Below are positions 2,329-18,703 of a stretch of DNA of 24,433 bases, one piece after another (within the stretch, counting starts at the first letter, position 1; each line of letters starts with the position of its first letter). A program made the position numbers and the translations under genes. This DNA is from a bacterium (GTDB lineage Bacteria; Patescibacteriota; Patescibacteriia; Buchananbacterales; UBA6539). Below the pieces are notes generated by a model, which was given only the letters and a program-made list of their open reading frames with translations, ran no database searches and was not told the origin of the DNA. The stretch covers positions 1 to 24,433 of the forward strand of contig JAHFHR010000001.1 of NCBI GenBank assembly GCA_023246815.1. The letters are read 5' to 3'.

Positions 2329-3947
2329 GCATGTTACCACTACCGGTGCTCAGTCATCCCAAACGTTTAGCGTGGGGGCTATTGCTACTGAGCACTATTT
2401 TTTTGTTAGGGTATCAGTTACGCGCGTACCACGATATTCACTCTTTTTTACCGTATTCTCCCTACGAAGCTTACGATGCGCATACTCTTGAGCGCGGAGA
2501 CCGTTTTTTTAGCGACCACATTCCCCTCTATCCGACTAAGTTTTTGATTCGTTTGGTAACAGAAACTTTTTTTGGTTCACTGTATGTCCTCTATCTCGCT
2601 GGCTTTGTCGCGGTTTTCTTACTGGGGCGTTTTTTTTCAAAAAATGATCTTGGAGGCGTGCTCGCTGTTATGTTATATGCGATTGCCCCTGACAATCTAC
2701 TCCAGTATACTAAAACGGTTTTAGTAAATGATAGCGGTGTGTCGTATATTGCAGCACTTTTTGCAATTCTGTCGCTTGGGGCTTATCTACGATCAAGGCT
2801 TCGAGTATGGCTACTTTTATTTTTTCTCTGTGGTGTGATTGCGCTCACCTCATATCATACCGGAGCAGCGGCATTCGCAATAATCCTTCTTGCTTCGTTG
2901 GGATCTCTGGCGTTGAGTAGTATGTTAAGCATCAGCTCCGCGATCACTATTGGTGGATTACTACTTCTTTATAGCGTTTGGTTGATCTTTGTCGATCCCG
3001 AGCAGTTCGCGCTTTTTTATCAGACCGTGCGACCGGACATGTTAGCGTATGCGCTAGCTGGCTTGCTGGTAGCAGTTGGTGTACTTTTTTTATTTTCTCT
3101 TTCTAGATTCTCCAAACGACTTTACAGCCTCTCTGAGTGGTTGCCGCTACTTGCGGTAGTTAGCGGGGCGCTACTATTGCTAAGCGACACTGATATTTTT
3201 GGTAGACTACTAGGAGTGAGTTCAGATTCAGGTGGGCACTATTTGTCTTTGCTAACGCTCAACAGTGCTTTAGCACAGGCGCTGTTGGTCTGTTTGTATA
3301 GCAGTATGGTAGTGCCGTTTTTCTCTAAACGAATCTTAAACCTTGAGCAGACACTCTTGCGTGGCTGGATGGTCGGGGTAGTATTGGTTGGGGTAGCGCT
3401 TATTGCTGGCGGGTACATGAGTCGGATACCCGACTATCTATTTCCTATTTGTTATGTATTTTTTGCATGCTATTGGTCGGACCGCTTTAGATTCAGAAAA
3501 ATTGTAGTGATTGCCACTGTATTACTATTAGTTGTTGCGCAACTTCGTATCTTGGAAGATCCTTTTTCACAACGCCGTTTTTATACTTTGGCTGAAGTGG
3601 AATCTGCTCGTGCAGTTGCCGCTCGTAACCTAGCAGGACCAGTGATGTCTGACTTGCGTACCGCCGCGCTATTACGGTACGTTGGGATGTCCGACGTTCA
3701 ATTTTTTTCCGAAAATAGTACAGAGCACCACACATTGTTTTATGGGTACGATCAACTTTATCCTTCTGATGATACGTCGTACGTGATACTCACTCGTGCA
3801 ATGCGTGATGTCGTGTATGCCACTAATTTTCAAACGACACCACTTGATGCCAGCGTATATGCTTTTTATCGAGAACGATTTACCGAGGTATACAGTGATG
3901 GAATATTTTATGTCTACGAACTTTCCGTGCCTCCTAATCTGCAATAG
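2325..3947 (+). CDS. Polytopic membrane protein, possible GT-C-like glycosyltransferase
   Basis: 540 aa, largely hydrophobic; acidic loop YEAYDAH after TM1; soluble C-terminal domain; ATGA overlap with the GT2 gene. Confidence 0.5.
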   Translation: MSMLPLPVLSHPKRLAWGLLLLSTIFLLGYQLRAYHDIHSFLPYSPYEAYDAHTLERGDRFFSDHIPLYPTKFLIRLVTETFFGSLYVLYLAGFVAVFLLGRFFSKNDLGGVLAVMLYAIAPDNLLQYTKTVLVNDSGVSYIAALFAILSLGAYLRSRLRVWLLLFFLCGVIALTSYHTGAAAFAIILLASLGSLALSSMLSISSAITIGGLLLLYSVWLIFVDPEQFALFYQTVRPDMLAYALAGLLVAVGVLFLFSLSRFSKRLYSLSEWLPLLAVVSGALLLLSDTDIFGRLLGVSSDSGGHYLSLLTLNSALAQALLVCLYSSMVVPFFSKRILNLEQTLLRGWMVGVVLVGVALIAGGYMSRIPDYLFPICYVFFACYWSDRFRFRKIVVIATVLLLVVAQLRILEDPFSQRRFYTLAEVESARAVAARNLAGPVMSDLRTAALLRYVGMSDVQFFSENSTEHHTLFYGYDQLYPSDDTSYVILTRAMRDVVYATNFQTTPLDASVYAFYRERFTEVYSDGIFYVYELSVPPNLQ

Positions 3948-3949
3948 CC

Positions 3950-5881: not shown

Positions 5882-5887
5882 ACTGTT

Positions 5888-6979
5888 ATGCGAGTTGCCA
5901 TTTTCCACAATTTTATGGACAATATCGGTGGTGCTGAGTATGTTGATTTAGTTCTTGCTCAAGCGCTCGGTGCTGATATTTATACCACTAACATCAACCA
6001 AGGGAAGATTGCTAAGCTTGGTTTTTCAACGGACAACATTTTTAGCATCGGTTCTGTGCCGGTCAATCAACCCCTGCGCAATGAAGCAGCGCATCAGCGA
6101 TTTAAGCGTCTGAATTTGGGCACTCGTTACGATGCCTATATTATTGCCGGTGATTGGGCAATGGCTGCTGCTATTCATAACAAGCCCAATCTTTGGTACA
6201 TTTATTCTCCGGCTCGTGAAATCTGGGATGCTCACGAATTTACTCGGCAGACATTGGTACCTGCGCCAGCTCGTCCTTTATTTACGGCTTGGGCAAAGCA
6301 TCATCGCAGACAAACGTTACAGAACCTGCAGCATATTAATCGTTTTGTTGCTATTTCTGAAAATGTTCGTTCTCGGGTGCAACGTTACTTGAGGCGTGAT
6401 GCTGTGGTGGTTCACCCACCGACGGACACTCAGCGTTTTAGGTATCAGGGAAATGGAGATTTTTGGTTGTCAGTTAATCGGCTATTCCATCATAAGCGCG
6501 TTGAGTTACAGCTTCAGGCGTTTTCGATGTTACCCCAGGAACAGCTGGTGATTGTTGGCTCATATGAGCGTTCACGTCATTTCCGTCGCTATGCTCAAGA
6601 GATGGAGCGGCTTAAGCCAGCCAACGTAACCTTATTGCACTGGGTTGATGCGCAGGCACTTGTTGATTTATATGCTCGTTGTCGGGGATTTTTAACCACT
6701 TCAATGGACGAAGACTATGGAATGGGGCCGGTTGAGGCAATGGCTGCAGGTAAACCGGTCATTGCTCCGAATGAAGGAGGGTACCGTGAAACCGTTATTG
6801 ATGGTCAAACTGGGGTGCTTATTGATGCTATCACCCCTGAAAAAATAGTAGCTGCGATAGGTGTGGTTGGTCCTCGTGCCGCTGAATATCAAATAGCCTG
6901 TCAAAAACGAGCCCAACAGTTTGATGTATCGATTTTCATTTCTAAAATGCAAGAACAGCTTAATGAGCTTATTAAATAA
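5888..6979 (+). CDS. GT4 (GT-B fold) glycosyltransferase
   Basis: N-terminal RVAIFH...GGAE; EDYGMGPVEAMAAGKPVIA (EX7E motif); GGYRETVIDG. Confidence 0.9.
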   Translation: MRVAIFHNFMDNIGGAEYVDLVLAQALGADIYTTNINQGKIAKLGFSTDNIFSIGSVPVNQPLRNEAAHQRFKRLNLGTRYDAYIIAGDWAMAAAIHNKPNLWYIYSPAREIWDAHEFTRQTLVPAPARPLFTAWAKHHRRQTLQNLQHINRFVAISENVRSRVQRYLRRDAVVVHPPTDTQRFRYQGNGDFWLSVNRLFHHKRVELQLQAFSMLPQEQLVIVGSYERSRHFRRYAQEMERLKPANVTLLHWVDAQALVDLYARCRGFLTTSMDEDYGMGPVEAMAAGKPVIAPNEGGYRETVIDGQTGVLIDAITPEKIVAAIGVVGPRAAEYQIACQKRAQQFDVSIFISKMQEQLNELIK

Positions 6980-7828
6980 ATGAAACCGACTGTTTCTGTT
7001 ATTATTCCCGTGTATAATGGCGCGGCAACGCTTCGTGCGTGCCTTGCATCCGTGTTAGCACAGGCGTACCCTAGTTTTGAAGTGATTGTGGTTGATAATA
7101 ATTCTACTGACACCACAGCTGATATTATTAAATCGTTTGGTGATCAGGTGCGCTCTGTGTTTTTAGCGAAAAGGGGTCGTGGTAATGCTCGCAATGCAGG
7201 CATTGCTGCCGCGCACGGCGACAGTATTGTTTTTACTGATTGTGACTGCATTGCCTCGTCCGACTGGCTGGCTTGTCTTGTCGCGCCGCTACTCAGTAGT
7301 AGCGCCAGTGCCGTGACCGGATTTCATGTTGCTGCTACTACTGACTATTGGGCACGACAGGTACAGCAACGCGATCAGATTTACTTTGATCGAGTCCGAA
7401 ATGGAGAATGGATTCATCATGTTGACACTAAAAATTTTGCTATCGATGGCACACTAATGCGTGCGATGTTATTTAATGAAAGTTTGCAGAATATGGAAGA
7501 CTACGATTTTTGCCTTCGGCTTACGACCGCTGGTGTGCCTATTTCATTTGCTCCTAACGCAGTAGTGGCCCACCACCACCGTTCATCATTGCGCGCAGTG
7601 ATAGCCACTAATCTTTCTCGCGGATACTGGATCGGGCGCGTACAGCGCATGCATCATTCTCGGCAGATAGTACCTCCTATGGGCGAGAGTTTTAGTCTGG
7701 GGAATGCAATTAGTTTTCCGATTTGGCTGGTAGGGCAGCTCGTTCGTCATCCCGCGCACTTCCCCTATCTCTTTATTTCTGAAATCAGTTGGCGACTCGG
7801 CAGTATTTGGCAATTTTTTAAGTTATGA
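6980..7828 (+). CDS. GT2 (GT-A fold) glycosyltransferase
   Basis: VSVIIPVYNG, VVDNNSTD, ARNAG, FTDCDC (DxD), EDYDF. Confidence 0.9.
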   Translation: MKPTVSVIIPVYNGAATLRACLASVLAQAYPSFEVIVVDNNSTDTTADIIKSFGDQVRSVFLAKRGRGNARNAGIAAAHGDSIVFTDCDCIASSDWLACLVAPLLSSSASAVTGFHVAATTDYWARQVQQRDQIYFDRVRNGEWIHHVDTKNFAIDGTLMRAMLFNESLQNMEDYDFCLRLTTAGVPISFAPNAVVAHHHRSSLRAVIATNLSRGYWIGRVQRMHHSRQIVPPMGESFSLGNAISFPIWLVGQLVRHPAHFPYLFISEISWRLGSIWQFFKL

Positions 7829-8865
7829 ACGATCATCGTAAAAATCTTTTAGTTACCTTGGCTGATCGGGCCTATCTGTCAGCTGCACAGCAGCTATTTG
7901 CGAGTGCCCACTTGCACGGCGGTTGGGATGGCGATTACATGTTGCTCACCCCAGAGGACGTTGATGATTCTGAGCTTGCGTGGTTTTACCGACAGGGGGT
8001 TGTTGTAAAAAAGTTGCCCATTCCTGTGCACTACGCTGGTGCGACTGGCTTTCCGTTAACTATTTATTTAATGCTGCATCTGTTTACGCCAATGGTTGCG
8101 GCGTGGGATCAGGTGGTGTTTATAGACGCAGACTGTATTGTTCGCGCCTCACTTGCTGAACTATCTCATGTACCTAGTTTTTCGGCAATTCGTGATGTGT
8201 TAAAAATGAAACTTGCTGATCAATTTCGCTGGTATTTTGTTCAAGTTTCTAGTGCCTCTCTTTACCAACTTTCTCCTGTCTCTCATCTTGAATACAAGAA
8301 TACCTATTCGCGGTTGAAACACGAGTACCCACTCCGCAGCCCTTCGTTTAATTTGGGAGTACTTGCGTTTCCAACATCAATTATTACCGACGAGCTACTA
8401 AGCAACTTACATCGTATCTACCAAACATACGGGGCCATCGGAGCTTTTGCAATTCAAGGCGATCTCAACCTTCTTTTTGCTGAGCGCTGGCACCACTTGC
8501 CTCCCGCATACAATGCCTTTGCTTATTATTGGATGAGCCACTACGGACTTTCTCGGGAGCGCGTTGACGGAGTGTTGCTCCATTTTGCTGGAGGGCCGAA
8601 GCCTTGGGAAACGAGCAATCCTTTTTATCCGGAATGGAAGGAAAATTTTGATGCTTCCGAGAATATTGATCTTCAAATATTTCGACCAGCAACCCGAATT
8701 TGGAATACGGAGGAGTTGGAAGAGCACCAGCTTTTTATGGATACTAAACATTTTGAATATACAGTTTGGTTTACGATCGATCGTAGTCTTGGTAACCTCG
8801 GTAAGGCAGTTCGTTGGTGCTCACCACGACTATATGACTTCATAAAACGACTGATTGTCGGATAG
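7825..8865 (+). CDS. GT8 family glycosyltransferase
   Basis: VFIDADCIV, FNLGV, QGDLNLLF, LPPAYN and LLHFAGGPKPW are characteristic GT8 motifs. Confidence 0.85.
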   Translation: MNDHRKNLLVTLADRAYLSAAQQLFASAHLHGGWDGDYMLLTPEDVDDSELAWFYRQGVVVKKLPIPVHYAGATGFPLTIYLMLHLFTPMVAAWDQVVFIDADCIVRASLAELSHVPSFSAIRDVLKMKLADQFRWYFVQVSSASLYQLSPVSHLEYKNTYSRLKHEYPLRSPSFNLGVLAFPTSIITDELLSNLHRIYQTYGAIGAFAIQGDLNLLFAERWHHLPPAYNAFAYYWMSHYGLSRERVDGVLLHFAGGPKPWETSNPFYPEWKENFDASENIDLQIFRPATRIWNTEELEEHQLFMDTKHFEYTVWFTIDRSLGNLGKAVRWCSPRLYDFIKRLIVG

Positions 8866-8883
8866 GCGGCAATGGTATATCAT
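8855..8883 (+). promoter_or_regulatory. Possible internal sigma70 promoter for the acpS-ACP-ligase-acyltransferase module
   Basis: TTGTCG(8855-8860), 17 bp, TATCAT(8878-8883), at the largest intergenic gap of the operon. Confidence 0.4.
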
Positions 8884-8906
8884 AAGGTAGTAATTTGTTT
8901 ACTTGT

Positions 8907-9269
8907 ATGAACACCGCTACCATTGGGCTAGGCGTTGATCTTGAAGAAAATAAACGTTTTTTAGGGTTGGATCGCGTTGCTGATCGGCCATTTTTAGAAA
9001 AAATTTTTACCCCACAAGAGCTGGACTACTGTTTCAGTAGGCCGCTACCGGCACAACATTTATGCGCTTGTTTTGTCGGCAAAGAAGCAGTCATTAAAGC
9101 TCTGGGTAGTTGCGGTCAGACTATCAGCAGCTACCACGATATTGAAATTGGCCATGCGTCTGACGGCGCACCGGTTGTTACCCTTGCTCATCATCCAACA
9201 GCACACGTTACCATTAGTCTTTCGCACAGTGCCCAACAATCAGTAGCATTTGTGCTTCTGTATTGGTGA
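8907..9269 (+). CDS. acpS: Holo-ACP synthase (4'-phosphopantetheinyl transferase, AcpS type)
   Basis: IGLGVD, IFTPQE, KEAVIKA and ISLSHS motifs; ATG at 8907 preferred over TTG at 8895. Confidence 0.85.
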   Translation: MNTATIGLGVDLEENKRFLGLDRVADRPFLEKIFTPQELDYCFSRPLPAQHLCACFVGKEAVIKALGSCGQTISSYHDIEIGHASDGAPVVTLAHHPTAHVTISLSHSAQQSVAFVLLYW

Positions 9270-9517
9270 ATATGAATATACAACAACAAGTCATCGCCAT
9301 CTTTTGTGACTCAGTTGAACATTCAGTGGATCGAGATACGCTGGATCTTACTATGCCGCTAAAAAATATGCCCTACATTGATTCCCTAACGCTTCTGAAG
9401 TTTGTTTCAGCCATTGAGGCTAGGTACAAAGTTTCAGTGGCGATGAATGAGGTTGATCAAGTTTTTCGCAGTATCGGTAGTGTTGTTGCCTACATTGAAG
9501 CTCATCACTCTACATGA
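9266..9517 (+). CDS. Acyl carrier protein
   Basis: ~83 aa with IDSL (phosphopantetheine Ser) followed by LLKFVSAIEARY; GTGA overlap with the acpS stop (alternative ATG at 9272). Confidence 0.85.
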   Translation: MNMNIQQQVIAIFCDSVEHSVDRDTLDLTMPLKNMPYIDSLTLLKFVSAIEARYKVSVAMNEVDQVFRSIGSVVAYIEAHHST

Positions 9518-11013
9518 CCTCTGTTGATCCAAAAGAGCTACTGATTGCCATGGTTACGCGGCAACCGGACGTGCCAGTGCTGATTGCCGGTGATCACATC
9601 GTGACCCATCGGCAGTTTTTAACGCTGGTTGAACACGCTGAGGCTAAACTTGATCAACTTGGCGTGACTCCGGGCAGCACTGTTGGTGTGGTTTTGCCCA
9701 ATAGTCTTGAGCTGCTCGTGCTCACTCATGCGATACTATGGCGCAAGGCCATTGTGTTTCCTATTGCACCGACGGTTACGCCAGCTGAACTTACTCAGCT
9801 TGTTGGTCCGACCACGCTTGCATTGTGCATTGTCCCACCTTTTTTATCGTCGCTTACTGCCACATCCTTTGCGGCGAAAGTTGTCCAGGTTACTACTGAT
9901 TATGCCTCATTAGACTTGATTGTGGTGACATCCGACAGCACGCTTGTTCCAAGTTTGGTCGCACCATTCTCTGCAGGTAATCCCTATGTTGTTCGCCTTG
10001 TCTCTTCTGGCACCTCGGGCGCCTATAAACAGGTACTGCATACCGCCGCAGCCCTGTTTGCTATGGGCGCCAACCTTACGACCGCATACCACTATCGGAT
10101 TGGCGCGGAGCGCGCGATGATGCTGGTGCCACCGAGTCATCTTATTGGTTTTGGCTATTTAATGTCGCCTATTTATTTCGGTTGGACTAACATTATTACC
10201 AATGGCTTTGTTCCACAACAGTTTATTGCCGAACTGCAGCACCATCGCGCCACCCTACTGTTTGCCACGCCATTTATTTTTGAAACCCTTGCCAAAGTCG
10301 CTCCTGCTGATCTTGATTTGTCGCACTTACAAAAGGCGGTATCTAGCGGTGGGCCTTTGTCTGAGGCCGTGTATCGCAGCTTTACCAGTCGGTGCCGAGC
10401 GTCGCTACACATAATGTATGGCTCCACTGAAGCAACAATTGTGACCGCCCGAATTGATGATGGAAATTATTCTGGAACAGATGTTGGTAAGCCGGTTGCT
10501 GACATGATTGTTAAAGTTTTTGATGATCAAAAGAATGAATTACCAACTGGATCAGTTGGTAATGTCGCCGTATCCGGCCCTACGGTTATTAGCGGGTATT
10601 TCAACAATGACCGGGCCAACGTAGAATTGTTTGTTAATAATTTTTTACTAATGGGCGATCGTGGATTTCTTGATGCTACTGGCAATCTGCATATTGTCGG
10701 TAGAACAAATTTGGTAATCAGCGTCGGCGGACTCAAGGTTGATATTATGGAAGTTGAGGCCGTACTTGCCGGGCACCCTAGCGTTGCCGAAGCACTGGTG
10801 TATGGCGTGTCACAGGCCAGTACTGAAGTGGTCAAAGCTGCGGTCGTATGTACTGATACGACCTTGACTACTGAAGCCCTCATGCAACACTGCCGCGACC
10901 ATTTGTCTGACTACAAAGTTCCCAAAGAGATTATTTTTGTGCCCCAGCTCCCCCGCAGCGCTACTGGCAAAGTAGTGCGCGGCGATGTCGCGGCCTTATT
11001 GAGTAAAAAATAA
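9514..11013 (+). CDS. Class I adenylate-forming enzyme (acyl-CoA / acyl-ACP synthetase-like)
   Basis: SSGTSG..K P-loop, PPSHLIG, YGSTE, GDRG, GR, EVE and PRSATGK motifs. Confidence 0.9.
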   Translation: MTSVDPKELLIAMVTRQPDVPVLIAGDHIVTHRQFLTLVEHAEAKLDQLGVTPGSTVGVVLPNSLELLVLTHAILWRKAIVFPIAPTVTPAELTQLVGPTTLALCIVPPFLSSLTATSFAAKVVQVTTDYASLDLIVVTSDSTLVPSLVAPFSAGNPYVVRLVSSGTSGAYKQVLHTAAALFAMGANLTTAYHYRIGAERAMMLVPPSHLIGFGYLMSPIYFGWTNIITNGFVPQQFIAELQHHRATLLFATPFIFETLAKVAPADLDLSHLQKAVSSGGPLSEAVYRSFTSRCRASLHIMYGSTEATIVTARIDDGNYSGTDVGKPVADMIVKVFDDQKNELPTGSVGNVAVSGPTVISGYFNNDRANVELFVNNFLLMGDRGFLDATGNLHIVGRTNLVISVGGLKVDIMEVEAVLAGHPSVAEALVYGVSQASTEVVKAAVVCTDTTLTTEALMQHCRDHLSDYKVPKEIIFVPQLPRSATGKVVRGDVAALLSKK

Positions 11014-11819
11014 TGTCCATCCCAACTCCTAAGCGCGTAGCCGTTGTTATTTATTCACTAGTACGTCAGCGCGCGCGAGCACTACCCGCAGCTATAGTCT
11101 CTCTTGCATGGGTGTTACCGCGACTGCCCTATCTTCTGCGCTCTATTCATGCTATTAAAAACGCGGTTCGTCCAGCTGAATCAACGATTCGGTTTTTTTT
11201 TCAGATGCGGCGCTTTCAGAATTTGTATGCTCGTTCAGACTATATCCAAAATTTTCGTAGTAAAAATATTGTTTCTGACGAAGCTGCTGCCGCGCAGTCC
11301 AGCACGCGACCGATTATTTATTTAAGCTGGCATCACGGCGCCGGACGCATTGAAGAGCTCTCGCGGCGCGCTGACCCCCAAGCCTATATTTTTAGCGCTT
11401 ACAGCTTTACAACGCCTCGCACGCTGCCGGCTGATCATCAAGCGCTGGTGAAGATGTCCAAGATACTCGCTGCTGGTGGACGTCTGGTTATTACCTTTGA
11501 CGGGCAGTTTGGCCAGCTTGATCTGGAGAATAGTATTTTTGGGGTGCCGCAAAATTTATCTAGCTCCTTTTTATATCTGATTAAACTCCACAATCCAGTG
11601 TGCATTCCAATGACGTTTTACGCGCATGATACTGGCGAGGTTGATATTTTTTACGGCCCTGATTTGAATGCTTCCGGCGCACTTACTCGCCGTGAGTATA
11701 GCGATGGGCTGCAGCATGTCTTGGAATATTTTACCCAAGATTTTTTAGCACACGGCTCGTATCAGATTGATTATCGTTTTTTACTTTATCCCGAACGAAT
11801 TAAACTATTGCCGTGGTAA
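11013..11819 (+). CDS. LPLAT-fold acyltransferase, LpxL/HtrB- or PatA-like (divergent)
   Basis: IIYLSWHHG, LAAGGRLVITFDG, IFGVP and PVCIP blocks correspond by eye to LpxL-like blocks; TAATG coupling to the ligase; catalytic HX4D/E spacing is not canonical. Confidence 0.55.
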   Translation: MSIPTPKRVAVVIYSLVRQRARALPAAIVSLAWVLPRLPYLLRSIHAIKNAVRPAESTIRFFFQMRRFQNLYARSDYIQNFRSKNIVSDEAAAAQSSTRPIIYLSWHHGAGRIEELSRRADPQAYIFSAYSFTTPRTLPADHQALVKMSKILAAGGRLVITFDGQFGQLDLENSIFGVPQNLSSSFLYLIKLHNPVCIPMTFYAHDTGEVDIFYGPDLNASGALTRREYSDGLQHVLEYFTQDFLAHGSYQIDYRFLLYPERIKLLPW

Positions 11820-11840
11820 TTTTTATCACGGCGGTAGTAT

Positions 11841-11879
11841 CAAAACTCCTCCCGGAACATCTTTTAGGGAGGAGTTTTG
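11841..11879. terminator. Bidirectional terminator between convergent operons
   Basis: Perfect 13-bp stem CAAAACTCCTCCC(11841-11853)/GGGAGGAGTTTTG(11867-11879), with T-runs at the stem base on both strands. Confidence 0.8.
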
Positions 11880-11886
11880 TACTGTT

Positions 11887-11940
11887 TTGTCGACTATGTT
11901 GTTGGCGTGGTTGTCGACTATGTTGTTGGCGTGGTTGTCG
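11887..11940. repeat. 24-bp tandem repeat (2.25 copies) spanning the giant gene's stop codon
   Basis: TTGTCGACTATGTTGTTGGCGTGG at 11887-11910 and 11911-11934, plus partial TTGTCG at 11935-11940. Confidence 0.95.
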
Positions 11941-14900
11941 GTGTTGCTGCTGGCGCTGGAGTGCCCGGTGGTTCAATGACACAGCTGCCGTCATCTTGGG
12001 TCGCATCGGCATTAAAATTATTTGCATCGGCGTTGGTACAACCAAGTACTGTTGCCGGGGGTTCTGACTGCTCAGCCCCCTCATTGGCAATCTCAGGCCC
12101 AGGTTGTGGTTTGTTGTCCGAACCAGCCAAGATTAGTATTGTTTTTGACAGCTCAACTTCATTCGTGCCATCTGACACAATAACGCGCACCGTCATCTCG
12201 GTATTTTCCGTTGGCAAATCACCTTCGTTTGCCTGCCAATACACAATGCCTGATTTTCCATCTACTTTGCCGATGTGCGGGGACAGTACCCAGCGGTAAC
12301 GCAGATCTTTGTTTTCGGTGTCGGGGTCGGTAACCTGCGCCCAGAATTCAACGGGCACACCAGCGCCTACTGATTGATGCGAGAGTATTAAGTCGTTGAT
12401 TACTGGCGCGGTTTTACTGGCTGCCAAACTGCCGTCAATAGCAAGCGCGATCCAGTCAAAGGTGACTGACTCATTCACCGTGTTTTCCAGCGCAATGGTG
12501 AAGCCAGTGGCGGTTTTGTCAATAATTTTCCAGTTGACAAATACGGCAGAGTCGTCAGACAAGTTGGCCACGATTTTCGGCACCGTGCCATACTCACCAT
12601 CAAAAGTTACCTGAGTACTGGTCGCATTGGCTTTTACTACAGCACTGCCAGCCTGATCACCTGAAACATAAAGTTTACCCAAGATTTTAACGTCTTTTCT
12701 AAAGACAACAATGTGTTCAAATTGAGCTTCGCCTTTGACAACGATCGTACCATAAAATGTGGCGGCTTGGTTAACGATTAGCCTGTCATTGTAGGTTACT
12801 GGTGCACGGTAGATTACTTCACCAGTTACTTCAACTGGTTGATCAATGTACAAGGTGTTTGCAGCTACATTTGGACTTTGACCTTCTTGGGCAGTTGGAT
12901 TGCTGGAACCTTGGAGTAAGCCTTGGATCTGTTCTTGTTGCTGTTGGAGGGCTCGAATAATGACCGGTGCAAATTTATTGTAATCAATAGACCAGATGTG
13001 TGTATCGTCACCAGGGTGGACTGCTTCCGGGATAATATCTAACACTTCCTGTGCAACAAGACCGATAGTATTAAATCCTTCCCCGGTGAGTACCAGTTCG
13101 CCATCCACAAATGTAGCTCCGAATTGATTATATCGTTTTGGTTTCAGTTTCATGATTTCAGCAATACCATAATCAAGTTGTTGTTGATTTTTTTTAATAC
13201 GATCATCAGAGCTGTCTGTCCAACCGATGGCATTTCCATAACCCGTATTGCCTGATCCTGCTAGTGGTAGTACCACTGAGTAGCCGGTCGCGCTAGTGTC
13301 AATAGCACCACTGTCCAGGGCAACATTTCCGGTTGAACCATGAATCGCCAGTCCAGTATTGGTACCCAACACCCCCCCATTCTGACTTGCTGCATAGCTG
13401 ATCATAAACTGGTCGCCAGTACTTGAGTTATCAATACCCATGATATAGTCAACACCTGAAGCAACTGCAAATTCAAGTGCCGCATCGCCAGTACTATCTT
13501 GTTCAATATACAATTCAGGAGTAGCTGTATCGGTGTCACTAACATATACGTGCAAGTTAGAGCCAGGGGCGGCAGTGCCAATACCGACATTACCCGTTCC
13601 TAAATATACATTATTAGCTGAAGCATTATATATTGAATAATTAGTTGTTCCAGCAGGTCGTGTACCAATTAACAGCCCAATTTCTTCTGATGCAAATCCT
13701 GTTTCTTCAACGATATTTAATCCAACATAGCTCCTCATAGCATCTGCCGTACCACTATAGGTAGAGTTAATCCTCATAGCGTATCCGTCACTAGAAACTT
13801 CTGCACCTGATTCGTCAAATAAAGGGATAAGATAAAGACCATGACCATCATCAGCATTACTACTAAAATCAACCTCTCCATCAATTAACACTATACCATC
13901 GACACTAGCTGAAGTATCAGATAATGTTCCACCAAAACGAACTTGTGAAACATTGTCCAATGAAGAACCAAACGCTGATTGGCTAGAGGCGGTAAAGTTG
14001 CCCGTGGTTGTGGCGTTGCGGCCGACATATAAATCACCAGTACCAAGAGCAGGTGTTATACCAAATGTTTTACCAATCTGGACGTACCCAGTGGTTGAAG
14101 CATTGCCTGATGAATCAATAGTGAACAGCTCACCTGAGCCGACCGTGAAAAGCGATGCTGGCGAGGTATCACCGATACCAAAATCCCCGCCATTGAAATA
14201 CGAATCAGCTGCTGTGTGCAATAATACATCTGCATTACCAGAAAGATCGTAAAGGTTTATTAGAGAATCTCCAGCACTACTTTGTTTTAAATTTATACCA
14301 GGTGTTCCAAATCTATTTGTAGCTTCTAGGTAATCTCCTGATGTTCCCCAATTAAAGAGTTTGAGAGCATAAATACTGTCCGTTCCATTCTTTTCAACAG
14401 TAAGCCCTGCCGAAGTATCTGGAGTGGTAGTACCAACACCAACACTATTAGTATCAGCCTGCACGACAAGGGTTGTGCCGTCCACCGTAAGATTGCCGGT
14501 GGTGGTGGCATTGTTACCGACCCACAAATCACCTGAGCTAAGCGCTCTACCATTATTTGCCTTTCCAATATTGAGGTAACCAGTAGTTGAGGCATTACCT
14601 GATGAATCAATGGTGAACAGGTCACCACTGCCAACCGTGAATAGCTGGCTTGGTGTTCCATCGCCAATACCGATGTTACCGGTTTCTTCAACGAATAAGG
14701 CTGTGGTTGCTGAACCAGCAGTATTAGGACGTACTTGTAGTGCGATAGAACCGGTGTTTACTGCTGCCCCTTTTTCAAAAAGAATTCGGGCAATGGCACT
14801 TTTGTCAGCGGTGGCAGTAGTATCGAAATTCATTACGTCAATTTGAGCTACATCTCCGTCAGCACTGGTTCTTAAGCCTTGCAACTCAGTAATCGCCGAT

Positions 14901-17425
14901 GAACCAGTGCCAGAGTTAATACCAGCAAGCTGGAAGTAGGTGGTTGCATTACCCGCTACTGATAAAGTTCTTTTAGGAGTAGTAGTCCCAACACCAACAC
15001 GGTCAGTGTCTGCCTGAACCACTAAAGTCGTTGCATCAACAGTTAGGTTTCCTGTAGTGGTGGCGTTGTTACCGACCCATAAATCACCCGAGCTAAGCGC
15101 TCTACCATTATTTGCCTTTCCAATATTGAGATAGCCAGTGGTTGAAGCGTTACCCGATGAATCAATGGTGAACAAGTCACCATTACCAACTACAAATGAT
15201 TGACTTGGGGTTAGATCTAGGATGCCTACTCTATTAGTATCGGCTTGTACTATGAAGGTACTTGCATCAACCGTAAGATTGCCGGTGGTGGTGGCATTAT
15301 TACTAACCCACAAGTCACCTGAACTTAATGATCGTCCATTATTCGCCTTCCCAACATTTAGGTACCCGGTGGTTGAGGCGTTACCTGATGAATCAACGGT
15401 GAACAGTTCACCTGAACCAACTGTGAAGAGGCTGGCTGGAGAGGTGTCGCCGATACCGACATTACCAGCAAAATAGTTATACGCATTGGAGTCTGAAGCG
15501 TAAAATGAGAATGGCGTATTGGTTTGTGTGCCGGTGGTAATATCCCCAATATACGCTCCATAAGTAGTACCAATAGTTCCGGCATTGGTGATGTCTCGAA
15601 CACGTAGTCCATAAGCAGTAGTCATAACACCAGATGAATTTTGAATCATAGTGTCAAGGCCAACAGCAAGAGTGACTGTTTGGCCGCCGCTATTAGTCAC
15701 AAATGAAAATTCCCCGATAGCTCCTCCAAGTGTTCCGGTGCCAAGGTGTCGCGCTTGATTACTAGCTCCAAAAATAGTTAGGTTAGTAAGTGCAGTACTA
15801 TTACCAGAGGGAACGGTGGTCAGTGAATACAGACCTTGAATATTTTTAGCAGTACTGGGGTCGGCAGCCAAATTGGCACTTGTATCTATATAAAAAGCTC
15901 GCAATGGTTGGGTGAAGCTTTCATTGGTGAACTGTTGATTAAATACAGTTCCAACGGTTAGAGCTTGGCCAGCCGTATCGGTGTAAGAACCAAGACTGTT
16001 AAGGGCTTGCAGGTGGAGTAGCCCGACGGGTGAAGCAGTGCCAATACCAATGCGGATATCTTCTTTTGCAGCCCCTGTTTGTACAATAAAGGTTGACGTT
16101 GATACCGAGAAGTTTCCAGTGGTGGTGGCATTGTTACTCACCCACAAATCACCTGAGCTAAGCGCTCTACCATTATTCGCTTTTCCAACATTTAAGTACC
16201 CGGTGGTTGAAGCGTTACCCGATGAATCAATGGTGAACAAGTCACCATTACCAACTGTAAATGCCTGAGATGGTGAAAGGTCTAAAATACCAACTCTGTT
16301 ATTGTCAGCCTGTACAATAAAGGTGCTACTATCTACCGTGAGATTGCCGGTGGTGGTGGCATTATTACTCACCCATAAATCACCAGCACTATTGGGCCCG
16401 GTTGGGTTTGCAGTGCCTATTAACAACTTACCGGTAGTGGTAGTGCTGCCAAATACCGACAAATCTGTTCGCACCTGCAATGGTGAGTAGGCGTAAATGC
16501 GTTCTACCTGGAGATCCTTGCCCTGGGCAATCGTCACATTAGTTTGGAAGGTGGTAGTAGCAGTGCTACTATTTGCCGCATTATTGATTTCGTTGACTGA
16601 AAATATACCAGTGGTAGTAGCATTACCGTCAATACGCAAGTCACGTACTGTTGAAGATGCCGTAATATACAATCCAATGTTCGTGCTGGTTGGCGTGATC
16701 GCCCGGTCAAAGGCGTAACTCCAGTATGACAAGCCATTCGCGCCCGTGAGCTGGGCGGCATCAAAGAACAAATTATTTCCAGAAACATACAGGTTGTTAA
16801 AGTTTGCAATATTATCGCCATCACCACCAAAAATTAGATTGGTACTGGTAGCTCTTGTTGAGGATACTCCCCCGTCAAATAAGTTTAAGGTTTTTTTGCT
16901 ATCATAAGCTGGTAGATAATTTGCCACTGCCTTAGTATTGGTGGCATGGAAACCATCAACGGTGTCGGCGTTGAAGGCGTATGGCACAGCGGTTAATCGT
17001 TTTCTGGTACCAAACGCCTCTTCCCAGGTGCCATTACCGTTAGCATCAATGTGTACCTGAAGGTAGAGGCTGTCGCTGTTAAAGTTCACCCCAGCAATTG
17101 ACGAGATGCTCCCCAAGCTGACACTAAATATTCCATTGACCGTGGTCACTTGGGTTGAGGTTGATGTCCAGCGCTCAGTCCAAAGTAGATTCCCTCCGCT
17201 ACTCGCATCGTAGAGCCTGAATCTAAAGGCCCAGCTACCATTTGACACTTGATTGCCACTGGTGTCCGTGAGTTTGCCTTGGTAGTTGAGCTGACTGTTG
17301 ATGCCGGTAGCGGCACGAACTTCACCACTGTCAAGCGCCAAACCAAAACCAAGCAACGCTACCATCAGTGCTGGGAGTACCAGTGGCGCGCAGTATCGCT
17401 TGAATTTAGTTAGAAGCTCGTACAT
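11918..17425 (-). CDS. Giant secreted repeat fibre/adhesin-like protein with internal Peptidase_S74 intramolecular chaperone
   Basis: 1835 aa; signal-peptide-like N-terminus (…VRA|A); NYQGKLTD…VPYA domain; GIG/GVGTxxP modules; SDDRIKKN…IGLVAQEV…IDY…ALQ chaperone at ~12918-13210; Ig-like domain and GCT…DDGSC motif at the C-terminus. Confidence 0.9.
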   Translation of the reverse strand: MYELLTKFKRYCAPLVLPALMVALLGFGLALDSGEVRAATGINSQLNYQGKLTDTSGNQVSNGSWAFRFRLYDASSGGNLLWTERWTSTSTQVTTVNGIFSVSLGSISSIAGVNFNSDSLYLQVHIDANGNGTWEEAFGTRKRLTAVPYAFNADTVDGFHATNTKAVANYLPAYDSKKTLNLFDGGVSSTRATSTNLIFGGDGDNIANFNNLYVSGNNLFFDAAQLTGANGLSYWSYAFDRAITPTSTNIGLYITASSTVRDLRIDGNATTTGIFSVNEINNAANSSTATTTFQTNVTIAQGKDLQVERIYAYSPLQVRTDLSVFGSTTTTGKLLIGTANPTGPNSAGDLWVSNNATTTGNLTVDSSTFIVQADNNRVGILDLSPSQAFTVGNGDLFTIDSSGNASTTGYLNVGKANNGRALSSGDLWVSNNATTTGNFSVSTSTFIVQTGAAKEDIRIGIGTASPVGLLHLQALNSLGSYTDTAGQALTVGTVFNQQFTNESFTQPLRAFYIDTSANLAADPSTAKNIQGLYSLTTVPSGNSTALTNLTIFGASNQARHLGTGTLGGAIGEFSFVTNSGGQTVTLAVGLDTMIQNSSGVMTTAYGLRVRDITNAGTIGTTYGAYIGDITTGTQTNTPFSFYASDSNAYNYFAGNVGIGDTSPASLFTVGSGELFTVDSSGNASTTGYLNVGKANNGRSLSSGDLWVSNNATTTGNLTVDASTFIVQADTNRVGILDLTPSQSFVVGNGDLFTIDSSGNASTTGYLNIGKANNGRALSSGDLWVGNNATTTGNLTVDATTLVVQADTDRVGVGTTTPKRTLSVAGNATTYFQLAGINSGTGSSAITELQGLRTSADGDVAQIDVMNFDTTATADKSAIARILFEKGAAVNTGSIALQVRPNTAGSATTALFVEETGNIGIGDGTPSQLFTVGSGDLFTIDSSGNASTTGYLNIGKANNGRALSSGDLWVGNNATTTGNLTVDGTTLVVQADTNSVGVGTTTPDTSAGLTVEKNGTDSIYALKLFNWGTSGDYLEATNRFGTPGINLKQSSAGDSLINLYDLSGNADVLLHTAADSYFNGGDFGIGDTSPASLFTVGSGELFTIDSSGNASTTGYVQIGKTFGITPALGTGDLYVGRNATTTGNFTASSQSAFGSSLDNVSQVRFGGTLSDTSASVDGIVLIDGEVDFSSNADDGHGLYLIPLFDESGAEVSSDGYAMRINSTYSGTADAMRSYVGLNIVEETGFASEEIGLLIGTRPAGTTNYSIYNASANNVYLGTGNVGIGTAAPGSNLHVYVSDTDTATPELYIEQDSTGDAALEFAVASGVDYIMGIDNSSTGDQFMISYAASQNGGVLGTNTGLAIHGSTGNVALDSGAIDTSATGYSVVLPLAGSGNTGYGNAIGWTDSSDDRIKKNQQQLDYGIAEIMKLKPKRYNQFGATFVDGELVLTGEGFNTIGLVAQEVLDIIPEAVHPGDDTHIWSIDYNKFAPVIIRALQQQQEQIQGLLQGSSNPTAQEGQSPNVAANTLYIDQPVEVTGEVIYRAPVTYNDRLIVNQAATFYGTIVVKGEAQFEHIVVFRKDVKILGKLYVSGDQAGSAVVKANATSTQVTFDGEYGTVPKIVANLSDDSAVFVNWKIIDKTATGFTIALENTVNESVTFDWIALAIDGSLAASKTAPVINDLILSHQSVGAGVPVEFWAQVTDPDTENKDLRYRWVLSPHIGKVDGKSGIVYWQANEGDLPTENTEMTVRVIVSDGTNEVELSKTILILAGSDNKPQPGPEIANEGAEQSEPPATVLGCTNADANNFNADATQDDGSCVIEPPGTPAPAATPTTTPTT
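13991..16291 (-). repeat. Five intragenic ~231-bp (77-aa) repeat units
   Basis: Units at 16049-16291, 15227-15457, 14996-15226, 14441-14671 and degenerate ~13991-14179; core FT(I/V)DSSGNASTTGY…GD(L)W/YV.NNATTTGN; a partial copy precedes the first (~16292-16445). Confidence 0.9.
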
Positions 17426-17562
17426 GGTTAATTATCGTTGGTAGTAAAAGTTTGTCTTTAGGAAACTAGAAATTTCGCCAGTATATTTTTCTAGCGAATG
17501 GTAAAAATGTTGTTGATGGCAACTCCAGACATACATGGCACAATTTAAAACACCCAAAAGCC

Positions 17563-17814
17563 TTACGCTCCAACTAAGTGTGAAGCGGCTGTTGCGTGTT
17601 GGTTCTTGTGAACGTTGTGGCCACTGCGGAAATAGTCGGTGGCGTGAACCAACCGAATAATTTCGTCGACCTGCGCTTGACTGTAACAACGCCAGCCGCG
17701 ACTGTCGCGGTGCGCTTTGGGAATCAGTCCTTCCTCTTCCCAGCGAATGACGGTTGTTTTGTTGCGGTCGATCTCCCGCAGGATGTCCTGGAGTCGATAA
17801 TAGCCTGCTATCAT
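17563..17814 (-). CDS. Stand-alone MerR-type helix-turn-helix protein
   Basis: 83 aa from ATG 17814 with GGAG upstream; YRLQDIL…KTTVIRWEEEGLIP…RDSRGWRCY matches the MerR HTH pattern; no effector or dimerisation domain. Confidence 0.85.
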   Translation of the reverse strand: MIAGYYRLQDILREIDRNKTTVIRWEEEGLIPKAHRDSRGWRCYSQAQVDEIIRLVHATDYFRSGHNVHKNQHATAASHLVGA

Positions 17815-17859
17815 AGTGCTCCGTTTTGTTATTTTTATCTTTGTTTTTGTATAGTGCCG

Positions 17860-18131
17860 ACCTTTGGCAAACAAAAAGACGTTTGCACAAAAAGCAAAAC
17901 GTCGCAAAGGTTCCCCAAGGGGAAGTACCGTTATATAATTGCGCAGCTTTGGTAGCGTAGATACTACTACCTCCAGACGTCATTTGACGACCGGCACGAA
18001 GCTGAGTTTGGCCACTTCTACTGATTTTGGCAGAAGTAGTACGTTTTTGCTTTTTGTTTTGCTGGGCCTCTTTCCCCCAAGGGGTATAAGATTTCTGTCC
18101 AGCAAAGTATACCGCTATACCAGTATACTCT
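17860..18131 (-). ncRNA. Structured cis-regulatory leader or sRNA (candidate riboswitch/attenuator)
   Basis: At least seven helices between the promoter and the MerR ATG; three G-U wobble pairs work only on the minus strand; a 16-bp long-range helix is mutually exclusive with the terminator. Confidence 0.65.
17869..17903 (-). terminator. Intrinsic terminator within the leader upstream of the MerR-type gene (attenuator)
   Basis: Minus strand GACGUUUUGC-UUUUUGU-GCAAACGUC followed by UUUUUGUUU, ending ~54 nt before the ATG. Confidence 0.65.
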
Positions 18132-18137
18132 GATATA

Positions 18138-18166
18138 AGTGTAGCACAACTAAGCCAAAAAGTCAA
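18138..18166 (-). promoter_or_regulatory. sigma70 promoter (extended -10) for the leader/MerR/giant-protein unit
   Basis: TTGACT(18166-18161), 17 bp, TG-n-TACACT(18143-18138). Confidence 0.7.
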
Positions 18167-18251
18167 TAGTTTTAGCCAAAATTTGCCTAATTTTACTTTT
18201 ATTTTCATTTTTTTGATCTTTTCCTCCATAAGTTTATTTTTAGCCCTACTT

Positions 18252-18446
18252 TTACGTCTTTGGTTTTTTCTTTATTTTGCGGCCATATACAAAAGCAATC
18301 AGATCCCGTTCGAAAATCCGATAGGTTCTTTCTCCAAGTTGGCTTACGGGCAGTTCGCCTGATTCAATCCAGCGATAGACAGTCTTAAGGCTTACACCAA
18401 GCCTTTGGGCGACTTGCTCCATTGTCAGCAGATCAAAATCTGCCAT
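18252..18446 (-). CDS. Excisionase-family (HTH_17) helix-turn-helix DNA-binding protein
   Basis: 64 aa; LLTMEQVAQRLGVSLKTVYRWIESGELP…YRIFERDL is the typical pattern. Confidence 0.85.
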   Translation of the reverse strand: MADFDLLTMEQVAQRLGVSLKTVYRWIESGELPVSQLGERTYRIFERDLIAFVYGRKIKKKPKT

Positions 18447-18502
18447 GTTGAGTCATTTTTTTAGAAAATTCCACGCGGAACATTAAGCGCTATTTTCGCT
18501 AT

Positions 18503-18532
18503 ATTATACTGAAATTATAGCCAAAATGTCTA
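18503..18532 (-). promoter_or_regulatory. sigma70 promoter for the HTH_17 gene
   Basis: TAGACA(18532-18527), 18 bp, TATAAT(18508-18503); a second TATAAT lies at 18519-18514. Confidence 0.55.
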
Positions 18533-18666
18533 CTTAAGTAAAGTGGATATCTTAAAAGACATTTAAAATAGATAAAAATAGCTATAAATACTCTCAAGTT
18601 TATTTAAGTCTTTTAATGTCTTTTTAAATTAGAATAAAATAGCTTAGAAATTAAATATTTGTTATA

Positions 18667-18695
18667 TTGGTCACTCCCTGATGGTGTGTTATACT
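18667..18695 (+). promoter_or_regulatory. Extended -10 promoter for the SxtJ/carbamoyltransferase cassette
   Basis: TTGGTC(18667-18672), 17 bp, TG-n-TATACT(18690-18695); the ATG follows 8 nt later. Confidence 0.5.
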
Positions 18696-18703
18696 GCAAC
18701 CAC

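What the first reader, a model, noticed from the sequence alone, without database searches (positions are those of the whole stretch)
11918..17425. Chromosomal, Sec-secreted 1835-aa tail-fibre-like protein with no phage genes nearby
Seen: signal peptide, NYQGKL…VPYA N-domain, fibre-type GIGTxxP modules and an S74 chaperone. Established: S74 chaperones fold and then self-cleave from trimeric beta-helical phage fibres and endosialidases. Inference: a cell-encoded trimeric appendage, plausibly the host-attachment fibre of an episymbiont. This one gene occupies more than a fifth of the window.
Basis: partly seen in the sequence, partly recalled or inferred. Interest (0 to 1): 0.65.

Follow-up and report, generated by a model that had tools for sequence, protein, structure and literature searches.

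The report
Secreted phage-like surface fibre, Patescibacteria
A tiny groundwater bacterium (Patescibacteria, Buchananbacteria-like) carries in its own chromosome a gene for a 1835-residue exported fibre, built like a phage tail fibre and related to the fibres that the predator Bdellovibrio uses to recognise prey, so it is a good candidate for how such host-dependent bacteria hold on to other cells.

Summary
Window 11918-17425 (-) is one intact 1835-codon gene. It has a Sec-type signal peptide, a conserved ~135-residue N-domain, seven GIGxxxP modules and a Peptidase_S74 domain with an intact SDxxxK motif (S1406, K1411). No phage genes were found on the contig, in the 743-kb assembly or beside orthologues on 170-200 kb contigs.

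The N-domain matches NCBIfam Bdello_MAT_N (34 of 36 relatives, best E 1.3e-12). The closest known kind is therefore the Bdellovibrio mosaic adhesive trimer (MAT) fibres. The published MAT survey table I read lists no Patescibacteria. Here the N-domain occurs in 128 of 401 sampled genomes of the phylum.

The main difference from MAT is that S74 is internal. About 430 residues follow the cleavage serine:
- a coiled coil and a floppy linker
- an H-type-lectin-like domain
- a PKD/Ig domain
- a Cys-bracketed motif and a Pro/Thr tail

The N-terminus and this C-terminal module are conserved. The ~1100-residue middle is mosaic.

Likely mechanism: the protein is exported and held by its N-end. The S74 cassette trimerises the chains and then cuts itself off, exposing a variable tip. 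Trimerisation, cleavage and host binding were not tested.

This scan has followed up the same family on other DNA many times, including this gene's orthologue.

The parts
11918..17425 (-). Whole gene, 1835 codons plus stop (protein P0001)
   Evidence: 79 homologues of 1000-3200 aa, named ones all Patescibacteria
17312..17425 (-). Sec-type signal peptide, residues 1-38, with a likely cut after V-R-A
   Evidence: n/h/c regions read from the sequence; the same layout occurs in 56 of 58 homologues; not run through SignalP
16901..17305 (-). Conserved N-domain, residues 41-175. It is a beta-sandwich of MAT-N type and the likely cell-proximal anchor
   Evidence: NF053851 Bdello_MAT_N at E 1.8e-8, and 34 of 36 relatives match; AF2 pLDDT 81; no PDB fold match; 75-79% identical in the nearest homologues
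13211..16900 (-). Shaft, residues 176-1405. It carries seven G[IV]G[TD]xxP modules and five ~77-residue constant repeats that alternate with cassettes unique to this protein. The last cassette (1281-1405) is the pre-S74 tip
   Evidence: cassettes 815-915, 1000-1080 and 1150-1280 hit none of the 79 homologues
13992..16396 (-). Stretch holding the diverged direct DNA repeats (63-83% identical) that encode the constant repeats
12899..13216 (-). S74 / intramolecular chaperone fold, residues 1404-1509, including the long C-terminal helix 1482-1506
   Evidence: Pfam PF13884; AF2 pLDDT about 90 or more over most of it; MyRF ICA 7dc3 at Z 9.1; the profile hits 8jov, 6f45 and 7dc3 at E 1e-11 to 4e-8
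13193..13210 (-). Catalytic motif S1406-D-D-R-I-K1411 (SDxxxK)
   Evidence: in the family alignment Ser is kept in 47 of 65 rows and Lys in 54 of 65
12788..12895 (-). Low-confidence linker, residues 1511-1546
   Evidence: pLDDT under 50
12404..12766 (-). Beta-rich stretch plus H-type-lectin-like beta-sandwich, residues 1554-1674
   Evidence: weak Pfam H_lectin hit in the query; 22 of 65 family members match H_lectin, best E 2.6e-5; pLDDT 82-98; Pam1 tailspike 7eea at Z 8.4; present in 51 of 79 homologues
12119..12403 (-). PKD/Big-type Ig-like domain, residues 1675-1769
   Evidence: pLDDT about 96; Z 9-10 to PKD, intimin and invasin domains; Big_9 or PKD in family members
11981..12043 (-). Cys-bracketed 21-residue motif, residues 1795-1815. 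C1796 and C1815 are the only cysteines outside the leader
   Evidence: the same motif forms arrays of up to 35 copies in other proteins; no Pfam or NCBIfam model matches
11921..11980 (-). Pro/Thr-rich disordered tail, residues 1816-1835. It has no sortase or transmembrane signal
17563..17814 (-). MerR-like HTH gene, 83 aa, directly upstream and conserved with the fibre gene
   Evidence: Pfam MerR_1; 81% and 71% identical counterparts at the same place in G003/L009 and G007
18252..18446 (-). HTH_17 (excisionase-type) gene, 64 aa, at the head of the cassette
   Evidence: found upstream of the fibre gene in all 5 family relatives examined, via loci L004-L008 and L009 (L006 and L009 are the same genome)

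Best explanation
This is a chromosomal gene for a cell-surface fibre of the MAT (mosaic adhesive trimer) kind, in a Buchananbacteria-like Patescibacteria genome.

Proposed course of events:
1. The protein is exported by Sec through its N-terminal leader.
2. The conserved beta-sandwich N-domain stays next to the cell. It would be held either by binding an envelope component or, if the leader is not cut, by the leader acting as a membrane anchor.
3. Three chains are brought into register from the C-terminal end by the S74 intramolecular-chaperone cassette. The shaft then folds into a long trimeric beta-structured fibre made of constant ~77-residue repeats and protein-specific cassettes.
4. The S74 dyad (S1406, K1411) cuts the chain. 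This detaches the conserved ~430-residue cassette (chaperone, coiled coil, H-type-lectin-like domain, Ig domain, Cys motif, Pro/Thr tail) and exposes the variable tip (1281-1405).
5. That tip and the variable cassettes are the likely binding surfaces for a partner cell.

Shown here:
- the gene and its domain order
- homology of the N-domain to MAT-N and of residues 1404-1509 to S74/ICA
- conservation of the catalytic dyad
- the mosaic pattern of conservation
- the chromosomal, non-phage context
- the spread across the phylum

Inferred: export, trimerisation, cleavage, which end is the tip, and host binding.
For: N-domain homology to Bdello_MAT_N: 34 of 36 relatives match, best E 1.3e-12.

Same layout as published MATs: a signal peptide, then a ~130-aa beta-rich domain, beta-helix modules with G-x-G-x-x-x-P loops, and S74 with SDxxxK (PMC10769870).

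S74/ICA fold and sequence.

The dyad is kept in family members that also carry the long C-terminal module: Ser in 47 of 65 rows and Lys in 54 of 65.

Mosaic conservation. The N-terminal 200-300 residues are 48-61% identical to homologues and the C-terminal 420-550 residues 37-39%. The middle ~1100 residues have no collinear counterpart or match only at repeat level. Three cassettes have no hit at all.

Chromosomal context. Orthologues lie on 172-201 kb contigs beside rpoBC, a Mur ligase and glycosyltransferases. A conserved HTH_17 / MerR-like / fibre cassette is present.

No phage markers in the assembly. No relative of the N-domain in IMG/VR. In 50,697 phage records only the S74 region and the stretch just before it match, at 26-33% identity.

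Distribution. The N-domain occurs in 128 of 401 sampled genomes of the phylum and 106 of 320 genera, usually in 1-6 copies and including single-contig genomes. That tally includes one unpublished genome, G194; without it the count is 127 of 400.
Against: No experiment and no trimer model were possible.

The match to NF053851 is below its curated cut-off (34 bits against 60). This shows superfamily-level kinship, not membership of the Bdellovibrio subfamily.

If S74 cuts, a large and well-conserved lectin-like/Ig module is discarded. That is costly for a 0.7-1.2 Mb genome and hints that the module has a function of its own.

The one metatranscriptome from the same sample holds none of the gene, but that run is small and the result is uninformative.

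Nothing shows that this organism is an episymbiont. Only its phylum and its small genome suggest it.
Confidence: 0.65

Rival explanations
1. The conserved C-terminal lectin-like/Ig/Cys module is the working distal tip or a second functional unit. Either S74 only acts as a trimerisation clamp and the module stays attached (uncut or held non-covalently), or cleavage releases a trimeric lectin with its own role. Such a role could be docking the nascent fibre to the cell's own glycan during assembly, or binding a partner's glycan.
For: The module is more widespread than a BLAST-detectable S74: the H-lectin-like domain is in 51 of 79 homologues against 14 of 79 for S74. There are 54 representative clusters at E < 1e-30. 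It folds confidently. From established knowledge, H-type lectins are trimeric sugar binders. A floppy 36-residue linker joins the module to the chaperone helix. In MyRF an internal S74/ICA domain separates two functional halves (PMC3742443, PMC8326128; seen in abstract only).
Against: Receptor-binding parts of phage and MAT fibres are the variable parts, whereas this module is conserved across genera and the pre-S74 tip is variable. The Ser/Lys dyad is retained in proteins that carry the module, so cleavage is under selection. The H_lectin match is weak: 15-18 bits, below the cut-off of 24.
Confidence: 0.2
2. It is a structural or self-directed surface fibre (envelope scaffold, cell-cell aggregation or biofilm attachment) and has no role in recognising a host cell.
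For: It lies beside, and convergent with, an 11-gene glycan and acyl-carrier operon, in this genome and in part in the orthologous locus. Only one copy is found in this assembly, against 21 in Bdellovibrio. No host is known for this lineage.
Against: The cassette-level variability between close relatives fits recognition of changing targets better than a housekeeping scaffold. The gene was not found in 5 of 19 genomes of the same family that were searched, so it appears dispensable.
Confidence: 0.12
3. It is a leftover tail fibre of a prophage, tailocin or contractile injection system.
For: The S74 chaperone is typical of phage fibres. An excisionase-type HTH_17 gene lies upstream. The contig is only 24 kb long and the assembly is 88% complete.
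Against: It has a Sec leader, which phage fibres lack. No capsid, terminase, sheath or baseplate genes are in the assembly. No integrase is on the contig. The HTH_17 / MerR-like / fibre cassette stays fixed beside cellular genes in other genera. No relative of the N-domain was found in IMG/VR. The gene is present in about a third of the sampled genomes of the phylum.
Confidence: 0.03

Closest known systems
Bdellovibrio bacteriovorus MAT (mosaic adhesive trimer) fibres, S74 subgroup, e.g. Bd3182 (Caulton et al. 2024, PMC10769870)
   Same: A signal peptide is followed at once by a conserved ~130-residue beta-rich N-domain (HMM match). The body is long and fibre-like, with repeated G-x-G-x-x-x-P loop motifs. 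An S74 chaperone with SDxxxK is present. The design is mosaic, with one conserved end and diversified cassettes. The gene is cell-encoded and not in a prophage.
   Different: The host is a probable monoderm with a 0.7-1.2 Mb genome, not a Gram-negative predator. The protein is about twice as long. There are 1-3 copies per genome in this family against 21. S74 is internal and is followed by a conserved ~330-residue lectin-like/Ig/Cys module. The score lies below the NF053851 cut-off. Patescibacteria are not in the paper's survey table S3.
Phage tail fibres and tailspikes with a C-terminal intramolecular chaperone (K1F endosialidase, T5 pb1; Pfam PF13884)
   Same: The S74 fold and the Ser/Lys dyad. 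A beta-structured stalk lies before it.
   Different: Phage proteins have no signal peptide, attach to a virion by their N-end and stop about 110-150 residues after the serine. Here 430 residues follow the serine and there is no virion.
MyRF / MrfA intramolecular chaperone autoprocessing (ICA) domain (PDB 7dc3)
   Same: The S74-type domain lies inside the protein, so cleavage would separate two folded parts. It is also the best solved structural match to residues 1395-1514 (Z 9.1).
   Different: MyRF is a eukaryotic membrane-bound transcription factor with no fibre and no lectin module. The resemblance is limited to this one domain.
H-type lectins (Helix pomatia agglutinin, discoidin; Pfam PF09458)
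   Same: Residues ~1590-1674 give weak H_lectin matches in the query and in 22 of 65 relatives. From established knowledge H-type lectins work as trimers, which would fit a three-fold fibre.
   Different: All scores for the query are below Pfam's cut-off. Sugar-binding residues were not examined, and no solved H-type lectin appeared in the fold searches.

Membership tests
MAT (mosaic adhesive trimer) fibre superfamily | Signal peptide at the N-terminus | tested here: met
   A three-part leader with an AxA-type site, also present in 56 of 58 homologues. Judged by eye and by hydropathy, not by SignalP.
MAT (mosaic adhesive trimer) fibre superfamily | Conserved ~130-aa beta-rich domain immediately after the signal peptide | tested here: met
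   NF053851 Bdello_MAT_N matches at E 1.8e-8 (34 bits, under the subfamily cut-off of 60). 34 of 36 relatives match, best E 1.3e-12. The model is a beta-sandwich with no PDB homologue, as the paper reports for MAT-N.
MAT (mosaic adhesive trimer) fibre superfamily | Trimeric intertwined beta-helix/prism shaft with capping-loop motifs | tested here: inconclusive
   Seven G[IV]G[TD]xxP...L motifs are present and resemble, but are not in exact register with, the published V-G-G/N-pi-x-x-P-x-x-x-L. No multimer prediction was available.
MAT (mosaic adhesive trimer) fibre superfamily | One conserved end and diversified cassettes or tips | tested here: met
MAT (mosaic adhesive trimer) fibre superfamily | Surface exposure and binding of another cell's surface | not testable with these tools
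   Needs microscopy, proteomics or binding assays.
Peptidase S74 / intramolecular chaperone autoprocessing domain | Pfam PF13884 match above the gathering score | tested here: met
   28.1 bits against 22; 33.4 bits in the genome search.
Peptidase S74 / intramolecular chaperone autoprocessing domain | Catalytic Ser and a Lys five residues later (SDxxxK) | tested here: met
   S1406 and K1411, conserved in the family.
Peptidase S74 / intramolecular chaperone autoprocessing domain | Chaperone fold with a long C-terminal helix | tested here: met
   AF2 model; 7dc3 at Z 9.1 over 114 residues; profile hits to 8jov, 6f45 and 7dc3.
Peptidase S74 / intramolecular chaperone autoprocessing domain | Located at the C-terminal end, about 110-150 residues from the serine to the stop | tested here: not met
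   430 residues follow S1406. Among the 14 homologues with a clean [ST]DxRxK motif, 279-478 residues follow it in 12 and 111 or 141 in the other two.
Peptidase S74 / intramolecular chaperone autoprocessing domain | Autoproteolysis after trimerisation | not testable with these tools
   Needs expression of wild type against S1406A.
H-type lectin (PF09458) | Pfam match above the gathering score | tested here: not met
   15-18 bits against 24. 22 of 65 relatives match at E <= 0.01, so a remote relationship is likely but membership is not shown.
Prophage or tailocin tail fibre | Lies among virion or tail structural genes | tested here: not met

The most novel reading that the evidence does not exclude
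In Patescibacteria the S74 domain has been turned from a terminal, discarded folding aid into an internal release switch, as in MyRF. After assembly it would separate a variable host-binding fibre from a conserved trimeric lectin/Ig/Cys module that has a job of its own, for example holding the nascent chains on the cell's own glycan coat or acting as a shed lectin. Together the two parts would form the main host-recognition apparatus in about a third of this phylum.
Probability: 0.3. Interest if true: 0.7.

Novelty: new variant of a known kind. Interest (0 to 1): 0.5.

Why it matters
How ultrasmall, host-dependent Patescibacteria find and hold their partner cells is largely unknown beyond pili. 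This gene belongs to a large family in that phylum that shares its anchor domain and its assembly chemistry with experimentally studied prey-recognition fibres of Bdellovibrio. That gives concrete candidates for host-range determinants. It also gives a defined biochemical test, cleavage at S1406. Relatives carry names from Saccharibacteria, the one class with cultured, genetically tractable members. The internal position of S74, ahead of a conserved lectin-like module, is not part of the published MAT or phage picture.

Tried and rejected
- Rfam (gathering threshold) and ARAGORN on the whole window found nothing.
- The 265-codon ORF at 17432-18229, which gene callers report in the orthologous locus as well, was rejected as spurious. 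Another frame, the 83-aa MerR-like gene, is far better conserved: 74-81% against 44%.
- Sequence search of the whole protein against PDB found no hit. Only the family profile found S74 structures.
- Foldseek of the multi-domain C-terminal model against PDB returned only generic tandem Ig or cadherin matches. The VIA search was more useful.
- The Cys motif has no Pfam or NCBIfam model. An earlier scan note's 'half-dockerin' reading could therefore not be confirmed.
- Read laying showed only thin, fragmentary metagenome contigs and no RNA. It gives no evidence on expression.
- The Atlas look-up of the pre-S74 tip gave only weak leads, to S74 and phage-tail-like trimerisation clusters.
Full report
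**Observation.** Window 11918-17425 on the minus strand is a single open frame of 1835 codons. It takes up 22.5% of the window. The window is the entire contig C17 of a 743-kb, 94-contig, 88%-complete assembly.

- A leader with basic residues (K7, K9, R10), a 20-residue hydrophobic core and V-R-A|A at 36-39.
- A domain from residue 41 to 175 that starts GINSQLNYQGKL and ends shortly after VPYAFNADTVDG.
- Seven G[IV]G[TD]xxP motifs, at 460, 657, 811, 919, 996, 1083 and 1281.
- Peptidase_S74 at 1406-1470, above Pfam's cut-off.

I could not run SignalP. However, 56 of 58 homologues have the same three-part leader ending in an AxA-like site directly before the N-domain. That is stronger than a single prediction. 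There is no lipobox. If the leader were not cut, it would act as an N-terminal membrane anchor, which also puts the N-end at the cell.

**Context.** On one side the gene meets, tail to tail, an 11-gene operon of glycosyltransferases plus AcpS, ACP, an AMP-ligase and an unassigned protein. On the other side lie two small HTH genes on its own strand, then a carbamoyltransferase, two SGNH proteins and TrmD. PHROGs finds nothing structural; the only phage-type matches are DNA-binding ones to the HTH_17 protein. The assembly holds no HK97 capsid, TerL, tail sheath or baseplate J.

The orthologue P0003 lies on a 201-kb contig with the same HTH_17 / MerR-like / fibre order and glycosyltransferases beyond. 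P0006 lies on a 172-kb contig beside rpoB, rpoC and a Mur ligase. An HTH_17 gene sits upstream of the fibre gene in all five family relatives examined. The 83-aa MerR-like gene (17563-17814) is 81% and 71% identical in two of them. The gene is therefore cellular and sits in a stable locus.

**Family and spread.** A search of 5.8 billion proteins gave 79 homologues of 1009-3161 residues. Every one that carries a taxon name is from Patescibacteria, several from Candidatus Buchananbacteria, and PGAP calls some of them 'tail fiber domain-containing protein'. Four relatives in the same GTDB family are the genomes that encode P0002, P0003, P0024 and P0029. Three of those are labelled Buchananbacteria.

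The N-domain profile finds a match as follows:

| Sample | Genomes with a match |
|---|---|
| Same family | 14 of 19, 1-3 copies each |
| Whole phylum, evenly sampled | 128 of 401 (106 of 320 genera) |

The phylum tally includes single-contig genomes, and the matches lie in open frames of up to 7471 codons. It also includes one unpublished genome, G194; without it the count is 127 of 400.

A pattern scan of species-representative genomes confirmed 324 loci. The best 80 are almost all named Buchanan-, Paceibacterota, Saccharibacteria, Moranii-, Falkow-, Magasanik-, Vogel- or Nomurabacteria. IMG/VR held no relative of the N-domain. Among 50,697 phage records, only the S74 region and the stretch just before it found matches, at 26-33% identity.

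**Anatomy.** Residues are numbered on the protein; window coordinates are in the parts list.
- *1-38:* leader.
- *41-175:* N-domain. The AF2 model is a beta-sandwich with pLDDT 81, and 85-94 over the first 110 residues. It has no solved structural relative. In AlphaFold DB it recurs as the N-terminal module of proteins named S74, YadA-like head, tail-fibre, collagen-like or GLUG.
- *176-1405:* shaft. Five copies of a ~77-residue unit (core SSGNASTTGY) alternate with cassettes. At DNA level the copies are only 63-83% alike, so they are old repeats. Cassettes 815-915, 1000-1080 and 1150-1280 match none of the 79 homologues, and the pre-S74 tip (1281-1400) matches four.
- *1404-1509:* S74/ICA fold with a long helix. 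The best solved match is MyRF ICA at Z 9.1. The family profile hits the chaperone ends of two phage fibres and MyRF at E 1e-11 to 4e-8. The motif is S1406-D-D-R-I-K1411.
- *1511-1546:* low-confidence linker.
- *1554-1674:* beta-rich stretch and an H-type-lectin-like sandwich. The Pfam H_lectin match is weak in the query, and 22 of 65 relatives match at E <= 0.01. The closest solved fold is the receptor-binding domain entry of the cyanophage Pam1 tailspike (7eea, chain residues 688-758), at Z 8.4.
- *1675-1769:* PKD/Big-type Ig domain, Z 9-10.
- *1795-1815:* a motif bracketed by the only two cysteines outside the leader.
- *1816-1835:* Pro/Thr tail with no sortase or membrane signal.

**Pattern of conservation.** Against the six best full-length homologues, only two parts are collinear: the N-terminal 200-300 residues (48-61% identity overall, 66-79% within the N-domain) and the C-terminal 420-550 residues (37-39%). 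The ~1100 residues between them are unmatched or match only through the repeats. The post-S74 module is widespread, with 54 representative clusters at E < 1e-30 and 886 at E < 1e-10. In the full-length hits the match runs to or near the protein's C-terminus.

In an alignment of 65 C-terminal regions, the catalytic Ser is kept in 47 rows and the Lys in 54. These include proteins with 279-478 residues after the serine. Only two homologues have the classical short ending of 111 and 141 residues.

**Mechanism proposed.** Steps 1 to 5 are inference from homology:
1. Sec export.
2. Retention by the N-end.
3. Trimer nucleation at the S74 cassette, which leaves the membrane last, followed by folding of the shaft.
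4. Self-cleavage at S1406.
5. Binding of a partner's surface by the variable tip and cassettes.

The argument that the variable parts, not the conserved lectin-like module, carry specificity follows the rule seen in phage fibres and MATs. The retained dyad argues that cleavage matters.

The main open point is why a genome this small keeps a 330-residue folded module beyond the chaperone. It may keep the C-termini of three unfolded chains together on the cell's own glycan until they trimerise, or it may be a second, released binding unit. I rate the second (the module is functional as a tip or as a free lectin) at about 0.2.

**Comparison with what is known.** The closest described system is the Bdellovibrio MAT family. 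It has 21 fibres, each with a signal peptide, a ~130-aa beta-rich N-domain with no PDB homologue, trimeric beta-helices with G-x-x-x-P capping loops, and either an S74 domain with SDxxxK or another tip. These fibres are shown to be surface-exposed, and one binds prey glycans (PMC10769870).

NCBIfam's model of that N-domain matches the query and 34 of 36 relatives. The scores are below its subfamily cut-off, so I call this superfamily kinship. The paper's table of MATs outside Bdellovibrio lists Oligoflexia, PVC, Alpha- and Deltaproteobacteria, the FCB group and Omnitrophica, but no Patescibacteria. A 2026 preprint on a Patescibacteria pilus mentions in one sentence a 'tail fibre-like protein' near the pilus operon and gives no analysis. 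I found no paper that describes this family in Patescibacteria or the internal S74 followed by a lectin-like module.

**Within this scan** the family is not new. A word search returned 240 notes in at least 204 genomes. Earlier follow-ups reached the same MAT comparison and had already described the internal S74 with a lectin-like module. One of them was on the 2445-residue orthologue P0003. I reached the MAT link from the NCBIfam hit before reading those notes, and I re-tested the main points here.

What this window adds:
- A clean single-copy example.
- The conserved two-regulator cassette.
- The five-fold alternation of constant repeats and variable cassettes.
- The count of the dyad across 65 relatives.

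**Limits.**
- No multimer modelling, no SignalP and no expression evidence. The only RNA run from the sample is small and holds none of the gene.
- The assembly is incomplete, so 'single copy' means one copy found.
- That this organism is an episymbiont is assumed from its phylum and genome size.

Noticed in passing
window 17432-18229 (-) against 17563-17814 (-): The 265-codon ORF listed here is probably not a gene, although the orthologous locus L009 has it called as a 252-aa gene. Its product has an odd, R/S/Q/K-rich make-up, and another frame holds an 83-aa MerR-like HTH gene that is far better conserved (74-81% against 44%). Gene callers are likely to mis-annotate this spot across the family.
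   Followed up: yes
window 17815-18251 (-), blocks at 18166-18138, 18060-18045 and 17902-17887: The 437-nt spacer between the HTH_17 and MerR-like genes is about 66% identical to its counterpart in L009. In a three-genome alignment (window, L009, L008) it holds invariant blocks. One is a promoter-like TTGACT-17-TACACT. The others are a perfect 13-base inverted repeat (ACAAAAAGCAAAA / TTTTGCTTTTTGT) whose arms flank an insert of variable length (about 60-140 nt) and are followed by a T-run. The arms never vary, so there is no covariation to tell an RNA attenuator hairpin from a pair of protein-binding sites.
   Followed up: partly
window 11981-12043 (-); proteins P0085, P0107, P0127, P0180: The Cys-bracketed motif (consensus G-C-T-D-x-x-A-x-N-Y-N-x-x-A-T-x-D-D-G-S-C) occurs once here. 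In other proteins of the representative library it forms tandem arrays of 8-35 copies. No Pfam or NCBIfam model covers it.
   Followed up: partly
window 129-11819 (+) and L009 16881-23090: The glycosyltransferase and AMP-ligase gene block that is convergent with the fibre gene is partly syntenic in the orthologous locus (GT2, GT2, AMP-binding, methyltransferase, GT8). The fibre locus and a glycan-building operon therefore travel together in at least two genera. Whether that glycan is what the N-domain or the lectin-like module binds is open.
   Followed up: no
L044, L052, L073: Three N-domain relatives lie in MAGs labelled Hyphomicrobiales, Candidatus Methylomirabilis and Gammaproteobacteria (the last on a 927-kb contig). 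These are either binning errors or genuine members outside Patescibacteria.
   Followed up: no
window 11000-18700: Two groundwater metagenomes of one study hold the gene at low depth. Contigs of two kinds are seen, identical and about 10% divergent, so at least two strains coexist. One divergent contig joins 14470 to 15185, which is most simply explained by the internal repeats.
   Followed up: partly
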